A stretch of 64,000 bases of DNA from a virus (Duplodnaviria > Heunggongvirae > Uroviricota > Caudoviricetes). The DNA lies in the IMG/VR virus record IMGVR_UViG_3300047666_001531; one strand, written 5' to 3'. Positions 142 to 62,078 of this stretch are shown piece by piece (within the stretch, counting starts at the first letter, position 1; every line of letters starts with the position of its first letter). Both the position numbers and the translations under genes were made by a program. The notes beneath the pieces are model-generated. The model saw only the letters and a list, made by a program, of their open reading frames with translations, was not told the DNA's origin and did not search any database.

Positions 142-177
142 AAATGATTGACAAACAGTGTTGGTTAGTGGATAATA
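142..177 (+). promoter_or_regulatory. class-A promoter: AAATGATTGACAAA, 17 nt spacer, GATAAT
   Basis: TTGACA at 148-153, 17 nt spacer, GATAAT at 171-176. ATG at 206 is preceded by cacaaggaa SD. Confidence 0.55.
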
Positions 178-205
178 TACCTATTGAAACACACAAGGAA
201 CACTT

Positions 206-616
206 ATGAAAAAGATTACTTATATCACTCTTTTGTACAAAACAGGCGCATCTACTGATAGTAAATTAGTGCCATTGTCTGGCGAATTTACAGAGTCTCT
301 TTTTGATCGTGCTAACAAAGCACTTCAAGAAGGTGATATGGATATGATGTTTGTTCCTTGTGAATTAGGTTTGGATAATCCAGCCGACAAAGTTATCTCT
401 GAATTTGGTTATGATGATGATGTGGATTTCGCTGGCGTTTATATCGAAGAGTTGTTTTACGCCGACTTTGATTTCGATGATTTCAAAAGCCGCATTGAGA
501 CCAGTGAAAATCAAAGCGTTGAACCAAAGTATACCGTAGAAGGGTTCGTTGAAGCACTTGAAGGCGCAATGTACTCAGAAGAAGTTGAAACCAACCGTTT
601 AAAGAGCTTAGGGTAA
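206..616 (+). CDS. hypothetical protein, 136 aa, highly acidic
   Basis: ATG with AAGGAA SD, downstream of class-A promoter. D/E-rich. No family recognised. Confidence 0.5.
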   Translation: MKKITYITLLYKTGASTDSKLVPLSGEFTESLFDRANKALQEGDMDMMFVPCELGLDNPADKVISEFGYDDDVDFAGVYIEELFYADFDFDDFKSRIETSENQSVEPKYTVEGFVEALEGAMYSEEVETNRLKSLG

Positions 617-620
617 TATC

Positions 621-893
621 ATGGAACATTTAGGACACGTTTTTAGTAGCGCCATGCCAGAAATAGAATCTGTTAATGGATTGCCGTTGGCAGACATTGC
701 TTTCGAGCAGATTGGCGATGGTAAAGATTTTAGTGATGAAGATTTCGCTGAGATATTTTATACTAAATTGCAGTCGGTAAAGGAATCGCAAATCATTGTA
801 AATACTGATTTGTCTCACATGTTCCCTGTAGGCGTTTCTACTAAGGAATACCTGATCAATTCTTTCGAGCAGTTTTTTGGTCAATACATCTAA
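621..893 (+). CDS. hypothetical protein, 90 aa
   Basis: ATG 4 nt after the upstream stop, operonic with 206..616. Confidence 0.45.
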   Translation: MEHLGHVFSSAMPEIESVNGLPLADIAFEQIGDGKDFSDEDFAEIFYTKLQSVKESQIIVNTDLSHMFPVGVSTKEYLINSFEQFFGQYI

Positions 894-905
894 GAGGTAA
901 CAGCA

Positions 906-1271
906 ATGGATAACACTGAAACAAAAACACCAGAGTTATCGGCCGACGCCTGGTTGTTTGTTGAAAATACCCCTAAAGGAAAAGATTTTGCATTCTCTGC
1001 TTCTCGCACGGGAAGTCATGGTGAAGATGGTGTTGTCGAATATAACCATGATGGGATAACCTTTTACCGATACCAGTCCATTGAGGACTTTGCAAGGCAT
1101 CAGTTAGATGGTGATAGTTCCGTAAAACACGAAGAGTCATACGTTGTTGGTGAAAGAGATGATAACGGACAGATAGTGTTTTTCGATAAAGTTTATTCTG
1201 AAGATGAACTAGATCTGGAAGACGATGGTGACGCGGTTTATACGCTTTACAGAAAAGCAAATAATGATTGA
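906..1271 (+). CDS. hypothetical acidic protein, 121 aa
   Basis: SD gaggtaa upstream of ATG. Its TGA stop (1269-1271) lies inside the TTGACA of the next promoter. Confidence 0.5.
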   Translation: MDNTETKTPELSADAWLFVENTPKGKDFAFSASRTGSHGEDGVVEYNHDGITFYRYQSIEDFARHQLDGDSSVKHEESYVVGERDDNGQIVFFDKVYSEDELDLEDDGDAVYTLYRKANND

Positions 1272-1296
1272 CAAAATAATTTAAAATGATAAACTG
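1262..1296 (+). promoter_or_regulatory. class-A promoter
   Basis: aataATGATTGACAAAa, then TG-a-TAAACT at 1287-1295 with a 16 nt spacer. Confidence 0.6.
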
Positions 1297-1332
1297 TATT
1301 TAATCAATAAGATATTAAATCTGGAGTTCCCA

Positions 1333-59846: not shown

Positions 59847-59907
59847 TGACTTTTCATTATCAAAATAAATTAATTCTAAAAGCCCGAGAGCTTTTACAGG
59901 AGCAGTT

Positions 59908-60339
59908 ATGCCTATAAACTTATTTCAATTCCCTGCGTTCGACCAGCGTAAAGTTACCGTCTGGTATTCCAAAGGCATTTCAATGCACATGATGGCGATT
60001 GGTGGTGTTAAAAAAGAGGGATTTTCTCTTGATGATGGTTATCCACTTGAAAAGACTCATGCGGCAGTTGTAGAGTATTACACTGACAACCACAAAAGCT
60101 TAGATGTGTGCGAAAGCACATTTTCATTAATGCAAGGTGAGGTTTGGTCACCAAACGGAGAAGCTAGAGAGCTAATCGAAAGCCTTGATGGTGTTAATCA
60201 TACATCTATGATGGTTGGTGATATTGTACAGATTGATGATGACTTATATTTATGTGCAACAGATTTTTCCGCTGAAGGGTTTGTTCATATTGGAAAGTTA
60301 CATGCCGGTGTTATTATTCCACAAAAGAAGCAGTCATGA
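59908..60339 (+). CDS. hypothetical protein, 143 aa
   Basis: acaggagcagttATG start. Confidence 0.45.
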   Translation: MPINLFQFPAFDQRKVTVWYSKGISMHMMAIGGVKKEGFSLDDGYPLEKTHAAVVEYYTDNHKSLDVCESTFSLMQGEVWSPNGEARELIESLDGVNHTSMMVGDIVQIDDDLYLCATDFSAEGFVHIGKLHAGVIIPQKKQS

Positions 60340-60989
60340 TGGATAAATTTATTGAAGTATCTCACCATCGCCAGTTTTTGTCAGAAGTAGCAGATCACAA
60401 TCTCGTTGTGAAGCAAGACGATGGCTTATACAAGCATTTATTGTTGCATAAGCCTGGTTCGTTCGAATATGCGTTTGAAGTGATTTCATTTCCGAGCCAC
60501 ATCATGATCACGGGCGACATGGGTACATATTGTTTTTCAAGAGTATCTGACATGTTCCGTTGGTTCATTAAAGATGGCGATAAATCTATGGACTCGCCTG
60601 AAATGGAGATGAGTCGTTGGTTTAACAAGCTTGTGTCAGTAGACAGTCAACTTGGCGCTAAAAAGAAAAACTTAGGTTTAGCATTAAGGCACATTGAAGA
60701 AAACCGTAATTTTTACTTGAAAGAGTATCCTGAGCACAAAGATGATATTCAAGAAGCGTTTGATGATCTGGTTGGTTGTGCTGAAATGGGCGTAGACGCC
60801 TTGCTAACTGGAATGTATGGCTTTGAACTCGTTTTGTGTGAAGAAGAGCATATGCCATTCTCTGATTTCGAACATAGCACCGTGGAAGCATATGTTCCTC
60901 AATTTGCTTGGTGTTGTTATGCAATAAATTACGCGATAGGCGAATATTTAAAATCAAAAACTAAAATTGATAAGTTGAAAAATGAATAA
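60336..60989 (+). CDS. hypothetical protein, 217 aa
   Basis: ATGA overlap with the upstream gene. Confidence 0.45.
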   Translation: MMDKFIEVSHHRQFLSEVADHNLVVKQDDGLYKHLLLHKPGSFEYAFEVISFPSHIMITGDMGTYCFSRVSDMFRWFIKDGDKSMDSPEMEMSRWFNKLVSVDSQLGAKKKNLGLALRHIEENRNFYLKEYPEHKDDIQEAFDDLVGCAEMGVDALLTGMYGFELVLCEEEHMPFSDFEHSTVEAYVPQFAWCCYAINYAIGEYLKSKTKIDKLKNE

Positions 60990-61008
60990 TTTGAATAATG
61001 GAGTGATA

Positions 61009-61587
61009 ATGGATTTGTCATTGCAATTAGACGGTGAAGTACAAGAAGTTTATATCAAAAAGTACGATGTTAAAGTAGAAAATGTTTCAGTATCACTTGT
61101 GTTCGAGTGCATACAACAAAACAAGTCAGGTCGTATTTCTATATGCGTTGGTAATAGAGTGTTACCTGAGTATTTATGTGTTTTTGAAAAAGCTCAAGAT
61201 GTGCTTGCAAACAGCTCTGTCATAGATGATTTGTTGATAGAGTCAACTGACTCGTTGGAAATTAGGCGTGTACTTGCTCTGGCCATTGGTGTTTTATCTA
61301 AATCCTTAAATGTGAAAGGTGAGGTGTTGATTGCTACAACATGTTCAATTGAAAAGACGTATCAGGATGTGATCAAGTCTTGTTGTGCTGGCTTTTCTTT
61401 AGACAGTTTAGGTTTCCACCCGAAATTATCTTTTAAAGATAATATGGGGATGAGCCACATAAACTTCCTCGAATTTATAATGGCAATTGAAGCGGCTTTT
61501 GGTATTGACGTGCCGGATGATGATATTGAGTCAAATGTTACTTATGGCAGCTTATTAAACGTGATCAAGAATCACATTAAAGATTGA
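61009..61587 (+). CDS. hypothetical protein with C-terminal acyl-carrier-protein-like domain, 192 aa
   Basis: C-terminus LGFHPKLSFKDNMGMSHINFLEFIMAIEAAFGIDVPDDD parallels ACP helix II (G-x-D-S-L...E-L-x-M-x-x-E-E-x-F-G-I-x-I-P). TGA stop lies inside the next -35. Confidence 0.4.
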   Translation: MDLSLQLDGEVQEVYIKKYDVKVENVSVSLVFECIQQNKSGRISICVGNRVLPEYLCVFEKAQDVLANSSVIDDLLIESTDSLEIRRVLALAIGVLSKSLNVKGEVLIATTCSIEKTYQDVIKSCCAGFSLDSLGFHPKLSFKDNMGMSHINFLEFIMAIEAAFGIDVPDDDIESNVTYGSLLNVIKNHIKD

Positions 61588-61613
61588 TAAAGTTATTTTA
61601 AAATGATAAAATG
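61577..61613 (+). promoter_or_regulatory. class-A promoter variant (TTGATA)
   Basis: aaaGATTGATAAAgttattttaaaaTGaTAAAAT. Confidence 0.55.
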
Positions 61614-61637
61614 TGTTCTCACACTCAAGGAGAATAT

Positions 61638-62054
61638 ATGCCAATTCTATATCACGGCACCGATTCGGTGTCGGCAGAAAACATCATCAAAAACGGTCTT
61701 AAAGAACACAGTTGCCTTACGTCAGATGAAAATCTGGCGTGGTACTATGCTGAAGCAAGACTGGAAGAGCTAGAAGATAAAAAAGCGCTTACAGACGACA
61801 TAGATGAAGTTGTGTTGCGTGTTGTTCTGGATAACGACAAGTTAGTAGTAGATTACCCCGCTTACGAAGAGCCTATCAGTATTTATCGTGATGAATATGT
61901 TGGAAATGATGAAGATTGGCATGAAGGCTGTGAAAATGGTGATATTCCTTATCCTAAAGACAAAGACGATGTGACCGCAGCGCTTGAAGCAACCACATGT
62001 GTCCGAGTAAAAAGATCGGTTTCTGGCTCCCTTTTTTCTCCAATTTGGGATTGA
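61638..62054 (+). CDS. Tpt1/KptA-like ADP-ribosyltransferase-fold domain protein, 138 aa
   Basis: PILYHGTDSVSAENIIKNGLKEHSCLTSDENLA closely parallels the KptA block FLYHGT..FLDEIL.QGLKPGSRQHVHLSADEATA. No N-terminal winged-helix lobe. Confidence 0.45.
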   Translation: MPILYHGTDSVSAENIIKNGLKEHSCLTSDENLAWYYAEARLEELEDKKALTDDIDEVVLRVVLDNDKLVVDYPAYEEPISIYRDEYVGNDEDWHEGCENGDIPYPKDKDDVTAALEATTCVRVKRSVSGSLFSPIWD

Positions 62055-62078
62055 CTTTAGTTTCAAAATGATAAATAA
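62044..62078 (+). promoter_or_regulatory. class-A promoter variant (TTGACT, 15 nt spacer, TG-a-TAAATA)
   Basis: ggGATTGACTttagtttcaaaaTGaTAAATA. The upstream TGA stop lies inside TTGACT. Confidence 0.45.

What the first reader, a model, noticed from the sequence alone, without database searches (positions are those of the whole stretch)
142..62078. One near-identical strong promoter module reiterated at least 22 times, delimiting single-gene cassettes
Seen directly in the sequence. At least 22 copies match AAA(T/G)GATTGAC(A/T)AA, about 10 nt, ATT(A/G)TGaTAAA(c/g)T. That is -35 TTGACA, a 16-17 nt spacer, and an extended -10 TG-a-TAAAnT. Four more upstream regions (3960, 17441, 28081, 42933) share the -35 half but have a TATAAT/TACAAT/TATTAT -10. 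Plus-strand copies lie at 1262, 3960, 8838, 17441, 18054, 19015, 21313, 22156, 33012, 40917, 42933, 43730, 46720, 53263, 54889, 58455, 58990, 61577 and 62044. Minus-strand copies lie at 14679, 17319, 28081 and 29431. Each sits 30-110 nt upstream of an ORF whose SD is also unusually uniform (AAGGAATAAA, 5-9 nt, ATG). Many leaders repeat cacacacaAGGAA. In three junctions the TGA stop of the upstream ORF is the TGA inside the -35 hexamer (1269-1271, 61585-61587, 62052-62054). In two more the stop is within 5 nt of it (40932-40934, 43730-43732). The cassette boundary and the promoter therefore coincide. Many copies carry the palindrome TATCAT-T-ATGATA over the -10, which could be an operator. Chromosomal promoters are normally heterogeneous, and integron cassettes carry attC sites rather than promoters. 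This looks like a different cassette-array logic, or one very large regulon of unknown-function genes under a single regulator.
Basis: seen in the sequence. Interest (0 to 1): 0.8.

Follow-up and report, generated by a model that had tools for sequence, protein, structure and literature searches.

The report
Reiterated promoter-operator module of a megaplasmid
The repeated sequence is real: a nearly invariant 45-bp start signal for transcription, with a built-in inverted repeat, that heads about 27 gene groups in this window and marks the unknown-gene domain of a giant (about 0.55-0.58 Mb) marine conjugative plasmid, probably so that one regulator can switch the whole domain together.

Summary
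The window carries 27 copies (18 strong, 9 partial or variant) of AAAnGATTGACAAA-N10-TTCAttaTGATAAAnT. None occur in shuffles or in 1.5 Mb of Colwelliaceae/Alteromonadales chromosomal DNA.

The window is neither a chromosome nor a known phage. It belongs to an uncultured element with contigs up to 583,042 bp. Its backbone (topoisomerase, Pol III alpha, IcmO coupling protein) is collinear with Alteromonas mediterranea plasmid pAMCP48-600 (604 kb).

That cultured plasmid has its own version of the module: TTGACT-N5-AATCA-N3-TGATTA-TAnTAT, plus a CACACA-SD leader. It occurs 51-62 times, confined to a roughly 160-kb domain of small unknown genes.

In five related lineages the window's module sits at orthologous positions. 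It is 70% identical there, against 38% for the flanks. A more distant lineage uses a different palindromic module at two orthologous positions checked.

My best reading is a sigma-70-type extended -10 promoter with an embedded operator (TCA-N3-TGA). This defines one very large regulon.

Two promoter-plus-gene units are gained or lost exactly at modules, as with PeSL shuffling in T4-type phages. However, only 8 of the 26 units tabulated hold a single gene, and nothing here resembles an integron.

No transcript mapping or binding data exist. The regulator has not been identified.

The parts
136..183 (+). module copy (-35 at 148): AATAAATGATTGACAA, 17 nt, GATAAT; heads 3 genes
   Evidence: family D7
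1256..1303 (+). class I module (-35 at 1268); the TGA stop of ORF 906-1271 lies inside the -35
   Evidence: (score 37.4)
3954..4001 (+). class II (bidirectional) module: GATTGACAAATTTATCATAATGAA + TATAAT; the reverse strand reads as a class I -10 block facing gene 3376-3900(-)
   Evidence: (I17)
4525..4572 (-). inverted copy of the class II module (96% complementary to 3960-3984); together the two flank gene 4030-4473
   Evidence: I17
7385..7432 (+). module with degenerate -35 (GCTTGCT) and a perfect -10 block; directly preceded by terminator-like hairpin 7343-7372, the only clear PeSL-like composite
8854..8901 (+). module with TTAACA -35 (8866), overlapped by a second -35 copy at 8845
14672..14719 (-). 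class I module (-35 at 14707)
   Evidence: 39.2
17312..17359 (-). class I module (-35 at 17347), divergent from 17448(+)
   Evidence: 38.1
17436..17483 (+). -35 block plus TACAAT -10 (no -10 block)
18051..18098 (+). class I module (TTGATA -35)
   Evidence: 40.0
19010..19057 (+). class I module with perfect 15-bp palindrome TTATCAT-T-ATGATAA
   Evidence: 40.2
21308..21355 (+). class I module (best score)
   Evidence: 43.1
22151..22198 (+). class I module; heads a 7-gene unit
   Evidence: (41.5)
28074..28121 (-). -35 block plus TATAAT -10
   Evidence: 20.0
29423..29470 (-). class I module (-35 at 29458)
   Evidence: 39.4
29513..29560 (-). weaker upstream copy (GATTAACC ... TCAAAATGATAAT)
33007..33054 (+). 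class I module; heads an 11-gene unit (RNase H, HipA ...)
   Evidence: (38.5)
40912..40959 (+). class I module; the stop of ORF 40638-40934 lies in its spacer; orthologous copy in L329
   Evidence: (37.9)
42928..42975 (+). class II module in a divergent intergenic region; orthologous copy in L329
43725..43772 (+). class I module; orthologous copies in L329 and L325
   Evidence: (42.3)
46715..46762 (+). class II module in a divergent region; the reverse strand -10 block faces genes 46263-46640(-) and 45764-46261(-)
53258..53305 (+). class I module inside the window-specific 9.5-kb block
   Evidence: 36.6
54884..54931 (+). class I module inside the window-specific block
   Evidence: 35.6
58450..58498 (+). 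class I module with TTAACA -35; the same variant is kept in four lineages
58985..59033 (+). class I module; orthologous in four lineages
61572..61620 (+). class I module; left boundary of unit 61584-62051, which is absent in L325; the TGA stop of ORF 60982-61587 lies in the -35
62039..62086 (+). module (GATTGACTTT ... TCAAAATGATAAAT); right boundary of the previous unit and left boundary of unit 62051-63128, which is absent in L266; the TGA stop of ORF 61611-62054 lies in the -35
63113..63130 (+). remnant -10 block AAAATGATAAT whose TGA is the stop of gene 62286-63125. L329, L325 and L266 have a full module here; it is the right boundary of the unit missing in L266
   Evidence: D17

Best explanation
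What it is. The repeat is a ~45-bp promoter-operator module with five parts:
- an A-rich tract;
- GATTGACA (-35);
- a 16-17-bp spacer whose downstream half holds nTCA;
- 3 nt;
- TGA-TAAAnT, which is an extended -10.
The nTCA and TGAn halves form an inverted repeat that abuts or overlaps the -10.

Where it is. It is the standard transcription start signal of the domain rich in unknown-function genes on a roughly 0.55-0.58 Mb conjugative megaplasmid. That plasmid has a Dot/Icm-type coupling protein and belongs to the pAMCP48-600 'chromid' family. Its host is an uncultured Colwelliaceae-like gammaproteobacterium.

How it probably works (inferred, not shown):
1. RNA polymerase initiates about 7 nt downstream of TAAAnT. 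Leaders are mostly 10-70 nt, and units hold 1-11 genes.
2. The sigma factor is of the sigma-70 type. It is either the host's RpoD or one of the sigma-70-family factors that such plasmids encode.
3. A dimeric, plasmid-encoded DNA-binding protein recognises the inverted repeat between -35 and -10. It thereby controls all units together. Repression is the likeliest outcome given the position.
4. As a by-product, the near-identical modules are substrates for recombination that adds or removes promoter-plus-gene units.
For: Reality and constraint of the motif:
- 23 sites at score >=18 against 0 in shuffles.
- The -10 block has 22 hits against 0.6 expected, 21 of them intergenic.
- About 33 bits of information over 48 columns (summed by me from the per-column values).

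Promoter anatomy:
- TTGACA, a 16-17 nt spacer, TGn and TAAAnT.
- Leaders mostly 10-70 nt.

Not the host's general consensus:
- 0 hits in 1.53 Mb of Colwelliaceae/Alteromonadales chromosomal loci.
- 0 hits in the 22.6-kb backbone locus L414 attributed to the same element.

Selection on the module:
- It sits at orthologous positions in L329/L303, L325 and L266. It also recurs in L219, where orthology was not examined.
- Module identity is 0.70 against 0.38 for 48-nt flanks. Coding DNA is only ~66% identical.
- The spacer half of the inverted repeat is T 96%, C 85%, A 96%.

Replicon:
- Window proteins lie on ~30 contigs, the longest 583,042 bp.
- A relative was assembled twice at 564,925 and 564,227 bp with rotated coordinates.
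- An IcmO/T4CP homologue, 47% identical to that of pAMCP48-600, has the same fingerprint of 30 contigs with the longest 583,042 bp.
- Its neighbourhood is collinear with pAMCP48-600 positions 1-19 kb. GC is 0.39 and tetranucleotide r is 0.976 to the window.
- 10 of 89 window proteins match pAMCP48-600, mostly in its 66-235 kb domain.

Same logic in the cultured relative:
- AATCAWWWTGATT occurs 62 times against 0.2 expected, almost all within 80-240 kb of 604 kb.
- There are 51 full modules, 24 of them with a CACAC leader.
- The plasmid encodes four sigma-70-family proteins.

A third lineage (L327) has a different palindromic module upstream of its homologues of two window module positions (the 504-aa gene and the gene after the (-) gene next to DsbD).

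Unit gain and loss occurs at modules.
Against: - No transcript 5' ends and no protein-binding data exist, so promoter activity and operator function are both inferred.
- No regulator was identified.
- The left arm of the inverted repeat is only 3-4 bp in the window lineage. TTTA replaces TTCA in 6 of 52 modules. It could instead be a spacer preference of the polymerase or sigma factor, or inheritance from a common ancestral module.
I did not see both on one record.
- PLSDB's MOB-suite typing calls pAMCP48-600 non-mobilizable, while the paper calls it conjugative.
- A 25-kb sample of the related 925-kb Vibrio vulnificus plasmid shows no reiterated module, so the logic is not universal in the wider family.
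Confidence: 0.6

Rival explanations
1. The modules are early (host sigma-70) promoters of a huge phage. They would be the equivalent of T4-type early promoters or PeSLs. Their uniformity would reflect competition for host polymerase, not a dedicated regulator.
For: - 82% of genes lie on one strand, genes are short (~720 bp each), and about 80% have no Pfam hit.
- PHROG hits outnumber Pfam hits in the flanks.
- Phage-associated families are present: DarA_C, Phage_phiTE_072, T5orf172, NinI-like phosphatase, HAD_SAK_2, SspB-like.
- Marine megaphages also encode a TonB-dependent receptor (PMC9723777).
- Units are gained and lost at promoters, as for PeSLs (PMC4122927).
Against: - No match in INPHARED by DNA or for 7 large unknown-function proteins.
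- The family is absent from IMG/VR, both for a protein and for two motif scans.
- No capsid, portal, terminase or tail gene appears in the ~110 kb sampled.
- Backbone synteny and shared proteins point to a plasmid maintained in a cultured host, with ParA/ParB, type IV secretion and pilus genes (PMC5217437).
- Most modules lack the upstream stem-loop that defines a PeSL.
Confidence: 0.1
2. The module is read by an element-encoded sigma-70-family factor, and that alone explains its uniformity. The conserved spacer bases are sigma contacts, and there is no separate repressor or operator.
For: - pAMCP48-600 encodes four divergent sigma-70-family proteins. All four match region 2, three also match region 4, and two match region 3.
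- Each lineage has its own module at the same positions. This fits co-evolution with a lineage-specific factor.
- The window lineage's left arm is short.
Against: - Sigma factors do not recognise dyad symmetry.
- In pAMCP48-600 the element is a perfect 13-bp palindrome, and in L327 an 18-bp one.
- Class II modules keep the inverted repeat at a different offset from the -10, and in both orientations.
- The -35 and -10 are already near-consensus for the housekeeping sigma.
- No sigma gene was seen in the parts of the window's element that I could read.
Confidence: 0.2
3. It is simply the consensus promoter of the host species, seen at normal density. It would have no special meaning.
For: The hexamers are canonical. 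The window is AT-rich (GC 0.38), so promoter-like strings are common.
Against: - 0 module hits in 1.53 Mb of related chromosomal DNA, against 18 in 64 kb.
- 0 hits in the backbone locus of the same element.
- In pAMCP48-600 the module is confined to about a quarter of the plasmid.
- Information content is far above that of ordinary sigma-70 promoters.
- Generic promoter-like sites are not enriched over shuffles.
Confidence: 0.03
4. It is a site-specific cassette system, integron-like, in which the module is the recombination site of a dedicated recombinase.
For: - Two units are gained or lost exactly at modules.
- A tyrosine recombinase gene lies at 24213-25031.
- Gene 4030-4473 is flanked by inverted module copies.
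Against: - There is no attC-like repeat family.
- Most units hold several genes.
- Several indels are not bounded by modules.
- The modules are conserved in place across lineages, with lineage-specific variants. An example is the TTAACA -35 of P58462 in four lineages. This indicates vertical inheritance, not cassette mobility.
- The recombinase is a generic 272-aa Phage_integrase hit, and no attI or Pc arrangement is present.
Confidence: 0.03

Closest known systems
pAMCP48-600 / pAMCP49-600 'chromid' megaplasmids of Alteromonas mediterranea (Lopez-Perez et al. 2017, PMC5217437; NZ_CP018025.1)
   Same: - About 0.6 Mb, circular, with about 75% hypothetical genes.
- Backbone order is topoisomerase, two ~1000-aa unknown proteins, IcmO-type coupling protein, then five small genes.
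- 10 of 89 window proteins are shared.
- Both carry DsbD, ERCC4-HhH, a cpYpsA-like protein, DUF262/GmrSD_N, RES-Xre, many orphan C5-methyltransferases and TnpB.
- The module architecture is the same: -35 TTGAC, an inverted repeat ATCA-N3-TGAT abutting the -10, and a CACACA-SD leader.
   Different: - Shared proteins are only 29-78% identical.
- The pAMCP48-600 module has a perfect 13-bp palindrome and a TAnTAT -10. The window has a 3-4-bp left arm fused to a true extended -10, TGaTAAAnT.
- The host family differs. DsbD is 75% identical to Colwellia.
- The paper does not mention promoters at all ('promoter' has 0 occurrences).
PeSL (promoter-early stem-loop) elements of T4-type phages (Arbiol et al. 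2010, PMC2839356; Comeau et al. 2014, PMC4122927)
   Same: Near-identical sigma-70-type promoters are reiterated between small unknown-function genes in plastic regions. Insertions, deletions and replacements between relatives have junctions in the promoters.
   Different: - A PeSL is a composite of a terminator stem-loop plus a promoter. Here, of the windows scanned for terminators (1-20 kb and 40-60 kb), only 7343-7432 has that form, and several modules overlap the upstream stop codon.
- The replicon is a plasmid, not a T4-type phage.
- The module carries a conserved inverted repeat.
Global repressor regulons of large plasmids and plasmid-prophages: KorA/KorB operators of IncP-1, and C1 operators of P1 (own knowledge)
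   Same: One element-encoded DNA-binding protein recognises a short operator repeated at many promoters, often over the -10. This gives coordinate control of backbone or early genes.
   Different: - Those systems have about 7-20 operators. Here there are at least 27 in 64 kb, and 51-62 in pAMCP48-600.
- The controlled genes are mostly of unknown function.
- The regulator is not identified and binding is untested.
Leading-region anti-defence islands of conjugative plasmids with Frpo/ssi promoters (Samuel et al. 2024, PMC11541004)
   Same: Arrays of small genes run on one strand next to transfer genes. They are rich in orphan methyltransferases and toxin-antitoxin pairs, and are expected to be expressed early in a new host.
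   Different: - The modules are ordinary double-strand promoters. 150-nt stretches around six modules show no single-strand structure (z from -1.5 to +0.5).
- The domain is over 100 kb.
- oriT and the direction of transfer are unknown.
Integron gene-cassette arrays
   Same: Long one-directional arrays of small, mostly unknown genes separated by a repeated boundary element.
   Different: The boundary element is a promoter, not attC. There is no IntI, attI or Pc arrangement, and most units hold several genes.

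Membership tests
sigma-70-type promoter, extended -10 class | -35 hexamer close to TTGACA | tested here: met
   TTGACA is present in the large majority of copies; the variants seen are TTGATA, TTAACA, TTGATT, TTGACT and one degenerate copy at 7397
sigma-70-type promoter, extended -10 class | spacer of 16-18 bp and a -10 of form TAnnnT preceded by TGn | tested here: met
   Spacer is 16 bp (modal) or 17 bp. The -10 is TGA + TAAA(A/C/G)T or TAATAT
sigma-70-type promoter, extended -10 class | transcription starts 6-8 nt downstream | not testable with these tools
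   No transcript data are available. Positions are consistent: leaders are mostly 10-70 nt to the start codon
PeSL (T4-type phages) | terminator-like stem-loop immediately upstream of the promoter | tested here: not met
   Only 7343-7372 / 7397 fits. For six modules the upstream ORF ends within or next to the -35. The 68-nt upstream folds are mostly weak
PeSL (T4-type phages) | located in hyperplastic regions of a T4-type phage genome | tested here: not met
   No T4 core genes are present. There is no INPHARED or IMG/VR match. The relatives are plasmids
PeSL (T4-type phages) | indel and replacement junctions between relatives fall in the elements | tested here: met
   Unit 61584-62051 is absent in L325. 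Unit 62051-63128 is absent in L266. Both have junctions in modules. Other indels are not module-bounded
pAMCP48-600-type megaplasmid ('chromid') | circular replicon of about 0.6 Mb | tested here: inconclusive
   Contigs are 583,042 and 551,384 bp. A relative was assembled at 564,925 and 564,227 bp with different start and orientation. Circular closure itself was not seen
pAMCP48-600-type megaplasmid ('chromid') | shared backbone: topoisomerase, large unknown proteins, IcmO-type coupling protein in the same order | tested here: met
   P0203 is 47% identical and has the 583,042-bp fingerprint. L414 is collinear with plasmid positions 1-19 kb. Assignment to the window's element is by fingerprint and composition, not by a single record
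pAMCP48-600-type megaplasmid ('chromid') | shared accessory proteins | tested here: met
   10 of 89 window proteins match at E<1e-5, with 29-78% identity
pAMCP48-600-type megaplasmid ('chromid') | ParA/ParB, replication initiator and T4SS genes on the window's own contig | not testable with these tools
   Only about 10 kb beyond each window end could be read
global repressor-operator regulon | dyad-symmetric site at a fixed place in many promoters | tested here: met
   nTCA-N3-TGAn occurs in 52 modules, with T 96%, C 85%, A 96%. The 13-bp palindrome occurs 62 times against 0.2 expected in pAMCP48-600
global repressor-operator regulon | a cognate DNA-binding regulator encoded by the element | not tested
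   No candidate was established. The most conserved local protein (45764-46261) looks like a small methyltransferase
Frpo/ssi single-strand promoters | long imperfect hairpin that recreates -35 and -10 in single-stranded DNA | tested here: not met
   DNA folding of six 150-nt stretches gives z-scores from -1.48 to +0.48
integron cassette array | attC sites at cassette ends, promoterless cassettes, IntI/attI/Pc platform | tested here: not met
   The only large repeat family is the promoter module. Units carry their own promoters. The recombinase at 24213-25031 is a generic Phage_integrase hit

The most novel reading that the evidence does not exclude
The module marks an 'establishment' regulon of more than 100 kb on a giant conjugative plasmid. 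It would comprise hundreds of small unknown genes, among them orphan methyltransferases, toxin-antitoxin pairs, nucleases and nucleotide-metabolism genes.

These genes sit behind near-consensus promoters that any naive host polymerase can read immediately after transfer. Each promoter carries the operator of a plasmid repressor, which later silences the whole domain. This would be zygotic induction on a scale not described before.

Lineages re-tool the operator (TCA-N3-TGA, AATCA-N3-TGATT, AACAACA-N4-TGTTGTT) together with their regulator.
Probability: 0.25. Interest if true: 0.8.

Novelty: new variant of a known kind. Interest (0 to 1): 0.6.

Why it matters
Giant plasmids of marine Gammaproteobacteria are mostly unknown genes, and nothing is known about how those genes are expressed.

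This finding gives a concrete, testable handle:
- A single short DNA signal defines which roughly 100-200 genes belong together.
- It predicts their transcription start sites.
- It predicts a master regulator that can be fished out with the palindrome.
- A cultured system exists for the experiments, namely A. mediterranea CP48/CP49 with pAMCP48-600.

It also shows a second setting, outside T4-type phages, in which reiterated promoters double as recombination joints that shuffle promoter-plus-gene units.

Finally, three related lineages keep the promoter positions but have replaced the promoter-operator sequence wholesale. That is a natural experiment in the co-evolution of a regulon with its regulator.

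Tried and rejected
- **Phage identity.** Megablast of 20 kb found no match. tblastn of the 679-aa protein and of six large concatenated unknown-function proteins against 50,697 phage records found no match. A second concatenation hit only generic NinI-like phosphatase and HAD genes. IMG/VR gave no relative for one protein. Two motif scans there gave only single chance hits.
- **Known RNA families.** Rfam at gathering thresholds returned nothing, and there are no tRNAs.
- **Plasmid DNA similarity.** Megablast found no match. Only protein-level tblastn found the megaplasmids.
- **Walking along the contig.** Look-ups are limited to window proteins and search hits. I gained only ~10 kb on each side. 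A TnpB 'multi-copy' trick returned the same place.
- **Metagenome motif scan.** L244 was a chance chromosomal hit: its genes account for the GatA/GatB, LigA and PrmC families in the census.
- **Single-strand (Frpo-like) promoter.** Rejected by folding.
- **Integron or attC.** Rejected by the repeat census.
- **A regulator among the conserved proteins.** The best-conserved one looks like a methyltransferase. No HTH candidate was established.
- **Vibrio vulnificus 925-kb plasmid.** The 25-kb sample shows no reiterated module.

Full report

Yes.

I aligned 13 copies picked by a loose regular expression that demands only TT[GA]A[CT], 13-16 nt, then TGnTAnnnT. The consensus is AAAAAAAAATGATTGACAAAATATTTCATTATGATAAAATG. 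It carries about 33 bits summed over 48 columns.

A two-block scan used a -35 block and a -10 block with spacing free by -1 to +2.
- It finds 23 sites at score >=18, and 18 at score >=26.
- Twenty second-order Markov shuffles give none.
- The -10 block alone gives 22 hits against 0.6 expected. Of these, 21 lie between genes.

An independent repeat finder reports the module as the dominant repeat family of the window. It finds no other family that could be an attC-like site.

The generic TTGACA/TATAAT scan is not enriched over shuffles (50 vs 54; 69 vs 63). So the extended module is unusual, not promoter-likeness in an AT-rich sequence.

Counting the copies at 148, 17448, 62051 and 29548, there are 27 copies in 64 kb: 21 on the plus strand and 6 on the minus strand.

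**2. Anatomy**

Class I modules read AAAnGATTGACAAA, about 10 nt, TTCAttaTGATAAAnT. That is TTGACA, a 16-17-bp spacer, and TGa + TAAAnT, a proper extended -10.

The spacer bases just upstream of the TG are nTCA. Together with TGAn they form an inverted repeat, nTCA-N3-TGAn.
- Over 52 modules of this lineage group, the three spacer positions are T 96%, C 85%, A 96%.
- In the 13 regex-selected training sites, which were not chosen for these bases, they are T 13/13, C 9/13, A 13/13.
- These bases make no canonical sigma-70 contact.

Class II modules (3966+, 42940+, 46727+, 4560-) read GATTGACAAAtTTATCATAATGAA followed by a TATAAT-like hexamer. Their spacer contains the reverse complement of the class I -10 block.
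- All four window copies lie in divergent intergenic regions.
- At 3986 and 46746 the reverse strand scores as a class I -10 block facing the minus-strand genes.
- The inverted repeat is therefore kept when the -10 is elsewhere, and in both orientations.

Predicted leaders are mostly 10-70 nt.

Using the gene calls stored with the metagenome records, the window has 89 genes, 73 of them on the plus strand.
- Twenty-six modules were tabulated; they head units of 1-11 genes.
- Eight units hold a single gene.
- Seventy-six genes lie in a module-headed unit.

Clear intrinsic-terminator-like hairpins exist, for example at 2667-2701, 7343-7372, 41895-41925 and 57831-57861. In the windows scanned, only 7343-7372 sits directly in front of a module.

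At 1268, 61584 and 62051 the upstream ORF's stop codon lies inside the -35. At 40924 and 43737 it lies within 5 nt.

- An SD-like core is found for 39 of 89 genes.
- CACAC is found in 5 of the 26 promoter-proximal leaders inspected.

**3. What replicon is this?**

The window has no tRNA and no Rfam family. It has a steady positive GC skew and GC of 0.38. About 80% of its proteins have no Pfam hit.

The few assignable proteins are:
- DsbD, 73-75% identical to Colwellia/Cognaticolwellia;
- an MFS transporter, flotillin plus a YqiJ/NfeD-like protein, and HipA;
- RNase H, a dimeric dUTPase, and Q_salvage;
- ERCC4-HhH, GmrSD_N/DUF262, cpYpsA, HAD_SAK_2, and a tyrosine recombinase.

The identical DNA occurs in about 30 metagenome contigs. 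The longest are 583,042 and 551,384 bp, and none exceeds 1 Mb.

I first suspected a huge phage, because of the short genes on one strand, the many unknown-function proteins, and families such as DarA_C, Phage_phiTE_072, T5orf172, NinI and SspB-like. Nothing supported that:
- no DNA or protein match in 50,697 phage records for the large unknown proteins;
- nothing in IMG/VR;
- no virion gene in about 110 kb sampled.

The decisive lead was a protein search of PLSDB. The 504-aa protein of 14994-16508(-) is 34-37% identical to proteins of giant plasmids. These are Alteromonas mediterranea pAMCP48-600 and pAMCP49-600 (604 and 610 kb), and Vibrio plasmids of 0.88-0.94 Mb.

I fetched all of pAMCP48-600. 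The evidence tying the window's element to it is as follows.
- Ten of 89 window proteins match it, mostly within its 66-235 kb stretch of small hypothetical genes.
- Its IcmO-type coupling protein has a 47%-identical homologue, P0203. That homologue's cluster has the same fingerprint as the window's proteins: 30 contigs, the longest 583,042 bp.
- The homologue's neighbourhood (L414) is collinear with plasmid positions 1-19 kb. The order is topoisomerase, Pol III alpha-like protein, two ~1000-aa unknown proteins, IcmO, then five small genes.
- L414 has GC 0.39 and a tetranucleotide correlation of 0.976 with the window.

A relative of the window (63-69% protein identity) was assembled independently at 564,925 and 564,227 bp, with different start and orientation. 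That is what a circular molecule gives.

pAMCP48-600 was described as a conjugative 'chromid'. It has 608 ORFs, 459 of them hypothetical, a 'plasmid' half and a 'chromosomal' half, ParAB, a type IV CRISPR system and housekeeping-like genes. The paper never mentions promoters (PMC5217437).

I conclude, with about 0.85 confidence, that the window is part of the unknown-gene domain of a pAMCP48-600-like megaplasmid of a Colwelliaceae-like host.

**4. Is the module element-specific and under selection?**

Specificity:
- At the threshold that gives 18 sites in the window, there are 0 sites in 1.53 Mb of chromosomal loci from Colwellia, Thalassotalea, Alteromonas, Shewanella and others.
- There are 0 sites, even at a low threshold, in the 22.6-kb backbone locus L414.

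Relatives:
- A motif scan of metagenome contigs and a homologue search brought in relatives.
- L303/L329, L266, L325 and L219 share proteins with the window at 45-80% identity and carry the same module.
- L209, L298 and L301 also carry multiple copies of the module, but share no detectable protein with the regions of the window family sampled.
- In L303/L329, L266 and L325 it sits at the orthologous intergenic positions.
- For eight orthologous groups, ungapped identity is 0.70 in the module against 0.38 in the 48 nt on either side. Coding DNA is about 66% identical.
- Individual variants are inherited. The TTAACA -35 of P58462 is present in all four lineages. That argues for vertical descent under purifying selection, not homogenisation.

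**5. The same logic in relatives with a different sequence**

In pAMCP48-600 the intergenic regions of the small-gene domain carry (C/G)TTGACT-nAnnT-AATCA(A/T)3TGATTA-nTATA. This is followed in about half the cases by ATTCACACACA-GGAG-ATG.
- The 13-bp palindrome AATCAWWWTGATT occurs 62 times against 0.2 expected.
- Per 50-kb bin the counts are 0, 10, 27, 16, 7, 0, 1, 1, 0, 0, 0, 0, 0. It is therefore confined to about 80-240 kb of 604 kb.
- The transfer, replication, recombination and polysaccharide regions lack it.
The motif is not the general promoter of the host or of the plasmid.

In the more distant lineage L327/L328 (38% identity; an NCBI MAG contig binned as Crocinitomicaceae) the window's module is absent.
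- About ten genes in 21 kb are instead preceded by AACAACAAAAGTGTTGTTTT, about 14 nt, TGGTATGAT, with a uniform SD ACAGGGGAAAC.
- This holds upstream of the homologues of the genes that follow window modules P46727 and P58462.

So three lineages keep promoter positions and a palindrome-plus-promoter design, but have exchanged the sequence. That is what one expects if the palindrome is the operator of a lineage-specific regulator.

pAMCP48-600 also encodes four divergent sigma-70-family proteins. An element-encoded sigma is therefore a live alternative or addition.

A 25-kb sample of the Vibrio vulnificus 925-kb plasmid shows no such reiteration.

**6. Cassette behaviour**

I compared the window with L329, L325 and L266.

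(a) The unit made of P61584 plus gene 61611-62054 is absent from L325. There, a single module directly follows the homologue of 60982-61587 and drives the conserved leader and the homologue of 62286-63125.

(b) The unit made of P62051, its leader and gene 62286-63125 is absent from L266. There, a single module drives the homologue of 63137-63841. In the window, the right end of this unit is a remnant -10 block, AAAATGATAAT (63118-63128), whose TGA is the gene's stop codon. L329 and L325 have a full module at that position.

(c) Several other differences are not bounded by modules:
- the 9.5-kb block 48.3-57.9 kb (Q_salvage through DsbD), present only in the window;
- a minus-strand gene missing at 45.6 kb;
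- TnpB insertions.

So promoter-plus-gene units can be gained and lost at modules. The simplest cause is recombination between 30-45-bp near-identical sequences, as proposed for PeSLs (PMC2839356, PMC4122927). This is a side effect, not a dedicated cassette system.

Six 150-nt stretches around modules show no single-strand structure, so these are not Frpo-type promoters.

**7. Mechanism, with what is shown and what is inferred**

Shown:
- the sequence architecture, its excess over chance and its intergenic placement;
- its orientation with the downstream genes;
- element and domain specificity;
- orthologous conservation;
- conservation of the dyad;
- the related design in a cultured plasmid;
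- two module-bounded indels.

Inferred:
- that RNA polymerase with a sigma-70-type factor starts transcription there;
- that a dimeric plasmid-encoded protein binds the dyad and co-regulates the domain;
- that repression is the mode, because the site lies between -35 and -10.

More speculative is the biological purpose. The gene content (orphan methyltransferases, DUF262/GmrSD_N, RES-Xre, HipA, nucleases, nucleotide enzymes), the strand coherence and the neighbourhood of transfer genes in pAMCP48-600 recall leading-region anti-defence islands (PMC11541004). This suggests an establishment regulon that fires in a new host and is then shut off.

**8. Comparison and novelty**

Each ingredient is known:
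- strong reiterated promoters, as in T4-type early promoters and PeSLs;
- operators repeated at many promoters of a mobile element, as with KorA/KorB and P1 C1 (own knowledge);
- leading-region gene arrays.

The new elements are the combination and the scale. There are at least 27 copies in 64 kb here and 51-62 in a ~160-kb domain of the cultured relative. The setting is a family of 0.55-0.6-Mb marine megaplasmids. Three alternative module designs occupy conserved positions. The one paper on the cultured relative does not mention promoters, and the few literature searches run turned up no description of such a module. I file it as a new variant of a known kind.

**9. Verdict**

- Confidence in the composite explanation is 0.6.
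- Interest is 0.6. This is a clean, testable regulatory signature for a large block of unknown-function genes, and a cultured model is available. No activity data exist and no regulator is in hand.

Noticed in passing
window 62078-62288: A ~200-nt leader lies between module P62051 and gene 62286-63125. It is more conserved than coding DNA in L329 and L325. It folds into a multi-helix structure with 10 base pairs kept by compensatory changes, on three sequences only. There is no Rfam match. It is a candidate cis-regulatory RNA.
   Followed up: partly
window 55992-57818; L327 18756-20621; pAMCP48-600 232855-234813: DsbD recurs in this plasmid family but with different origins. The window copy is ~75% identical to Colwellia/Cognaticolwellia DsbD. 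The L327 copy is only ~40% identical to any Alteromonadales copy. The pAMCP48-600 copy is 38% identical to the window's. In the window and in L327 it sits next to the same minus-strand gene. This suggests repeated replacement by host genes.
   Followed up: partly
L327 / L328 (NCBI PAVO01000030.1), whole locus: This distant relative uses a different reiterated module, AACAACAAAAGTGTTGTTTT-N14-TGGTATGAT, with a uniform SD ACAGGGGAAAC. There are about 10 copies in 21 kb. The contig is binned in a 'Crocinitomicaceae' MAG, probably wrongly.
   Followed up: partly
window 3960-3984 and 4542-4566: Gene 4030-4473 is flanked by inverted 25-bp copies of the class II module, 96% complementary and 557 nt apart. 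It could be an invertible or excisable unit, or just two divergent promoter regions.
   Followed up: no
window leaders at 148, 3966, 8866, 43737, 61584; pAMCP48-600 modules: The leader motif CACACA(A)GGA overlapping the SD resembles the CsrA-binding consensus ACA-R-GGA (own knowledge). pAMCP48-600 encodes its own CsrA. The motif follows 24 of 51 modules there and 5 of 26 here.
   Followed up: no
window 45764-46261 (-): This is among the most conserved proteins of the region: 73-84% identical in the related lineages and 64% in pAMCP48-600. It has no Pfam hit, but by eye it carries motifs of a small N6-adenine methyltransferase (EPFRGSG, NPTW).
   Followed up: partly
window 48300-57870: A 9.5-kb block of about 16 genes, from Q_salvage to DsbD, is present in the window. 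It is absent from L303/L329, L266 and L325. In L327 the same place holds other genes (PIF1-like helicase, DsbD).
   Followed up: partly
L204 6739-7791; L329 18828-20288; L327 7662-8849; pAMCP48-600 319548-320717 and 354757-356094: TnpB/IS605-family genes are inserted at different places in each lineage. The window element's copy has relatives, 72-77% identical, in Microbulbifer, Oleiphilus, Endozoicomonas and Shewanella.
   Followed up: partly
window 46754-48283: This 509-aa protein has a signal peptide, an HExxH metalloprotease motif and a Gly-rich segment plus hydrophobic C-terminal tail (read by eye). pAMCP48-600 carries a complete XrtA/PEP-CTERM exosortase system. It may be a sorted secreted protease.
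   Followed up: no
L259 (Ga0100391_1001955), 2471-7750: Two modules sit at the edge of a contig that continues into RmuC and a large TPR protein. I could not tell whether this is an element-chromosome junction or ordinary element cargo.
   Followed up: no
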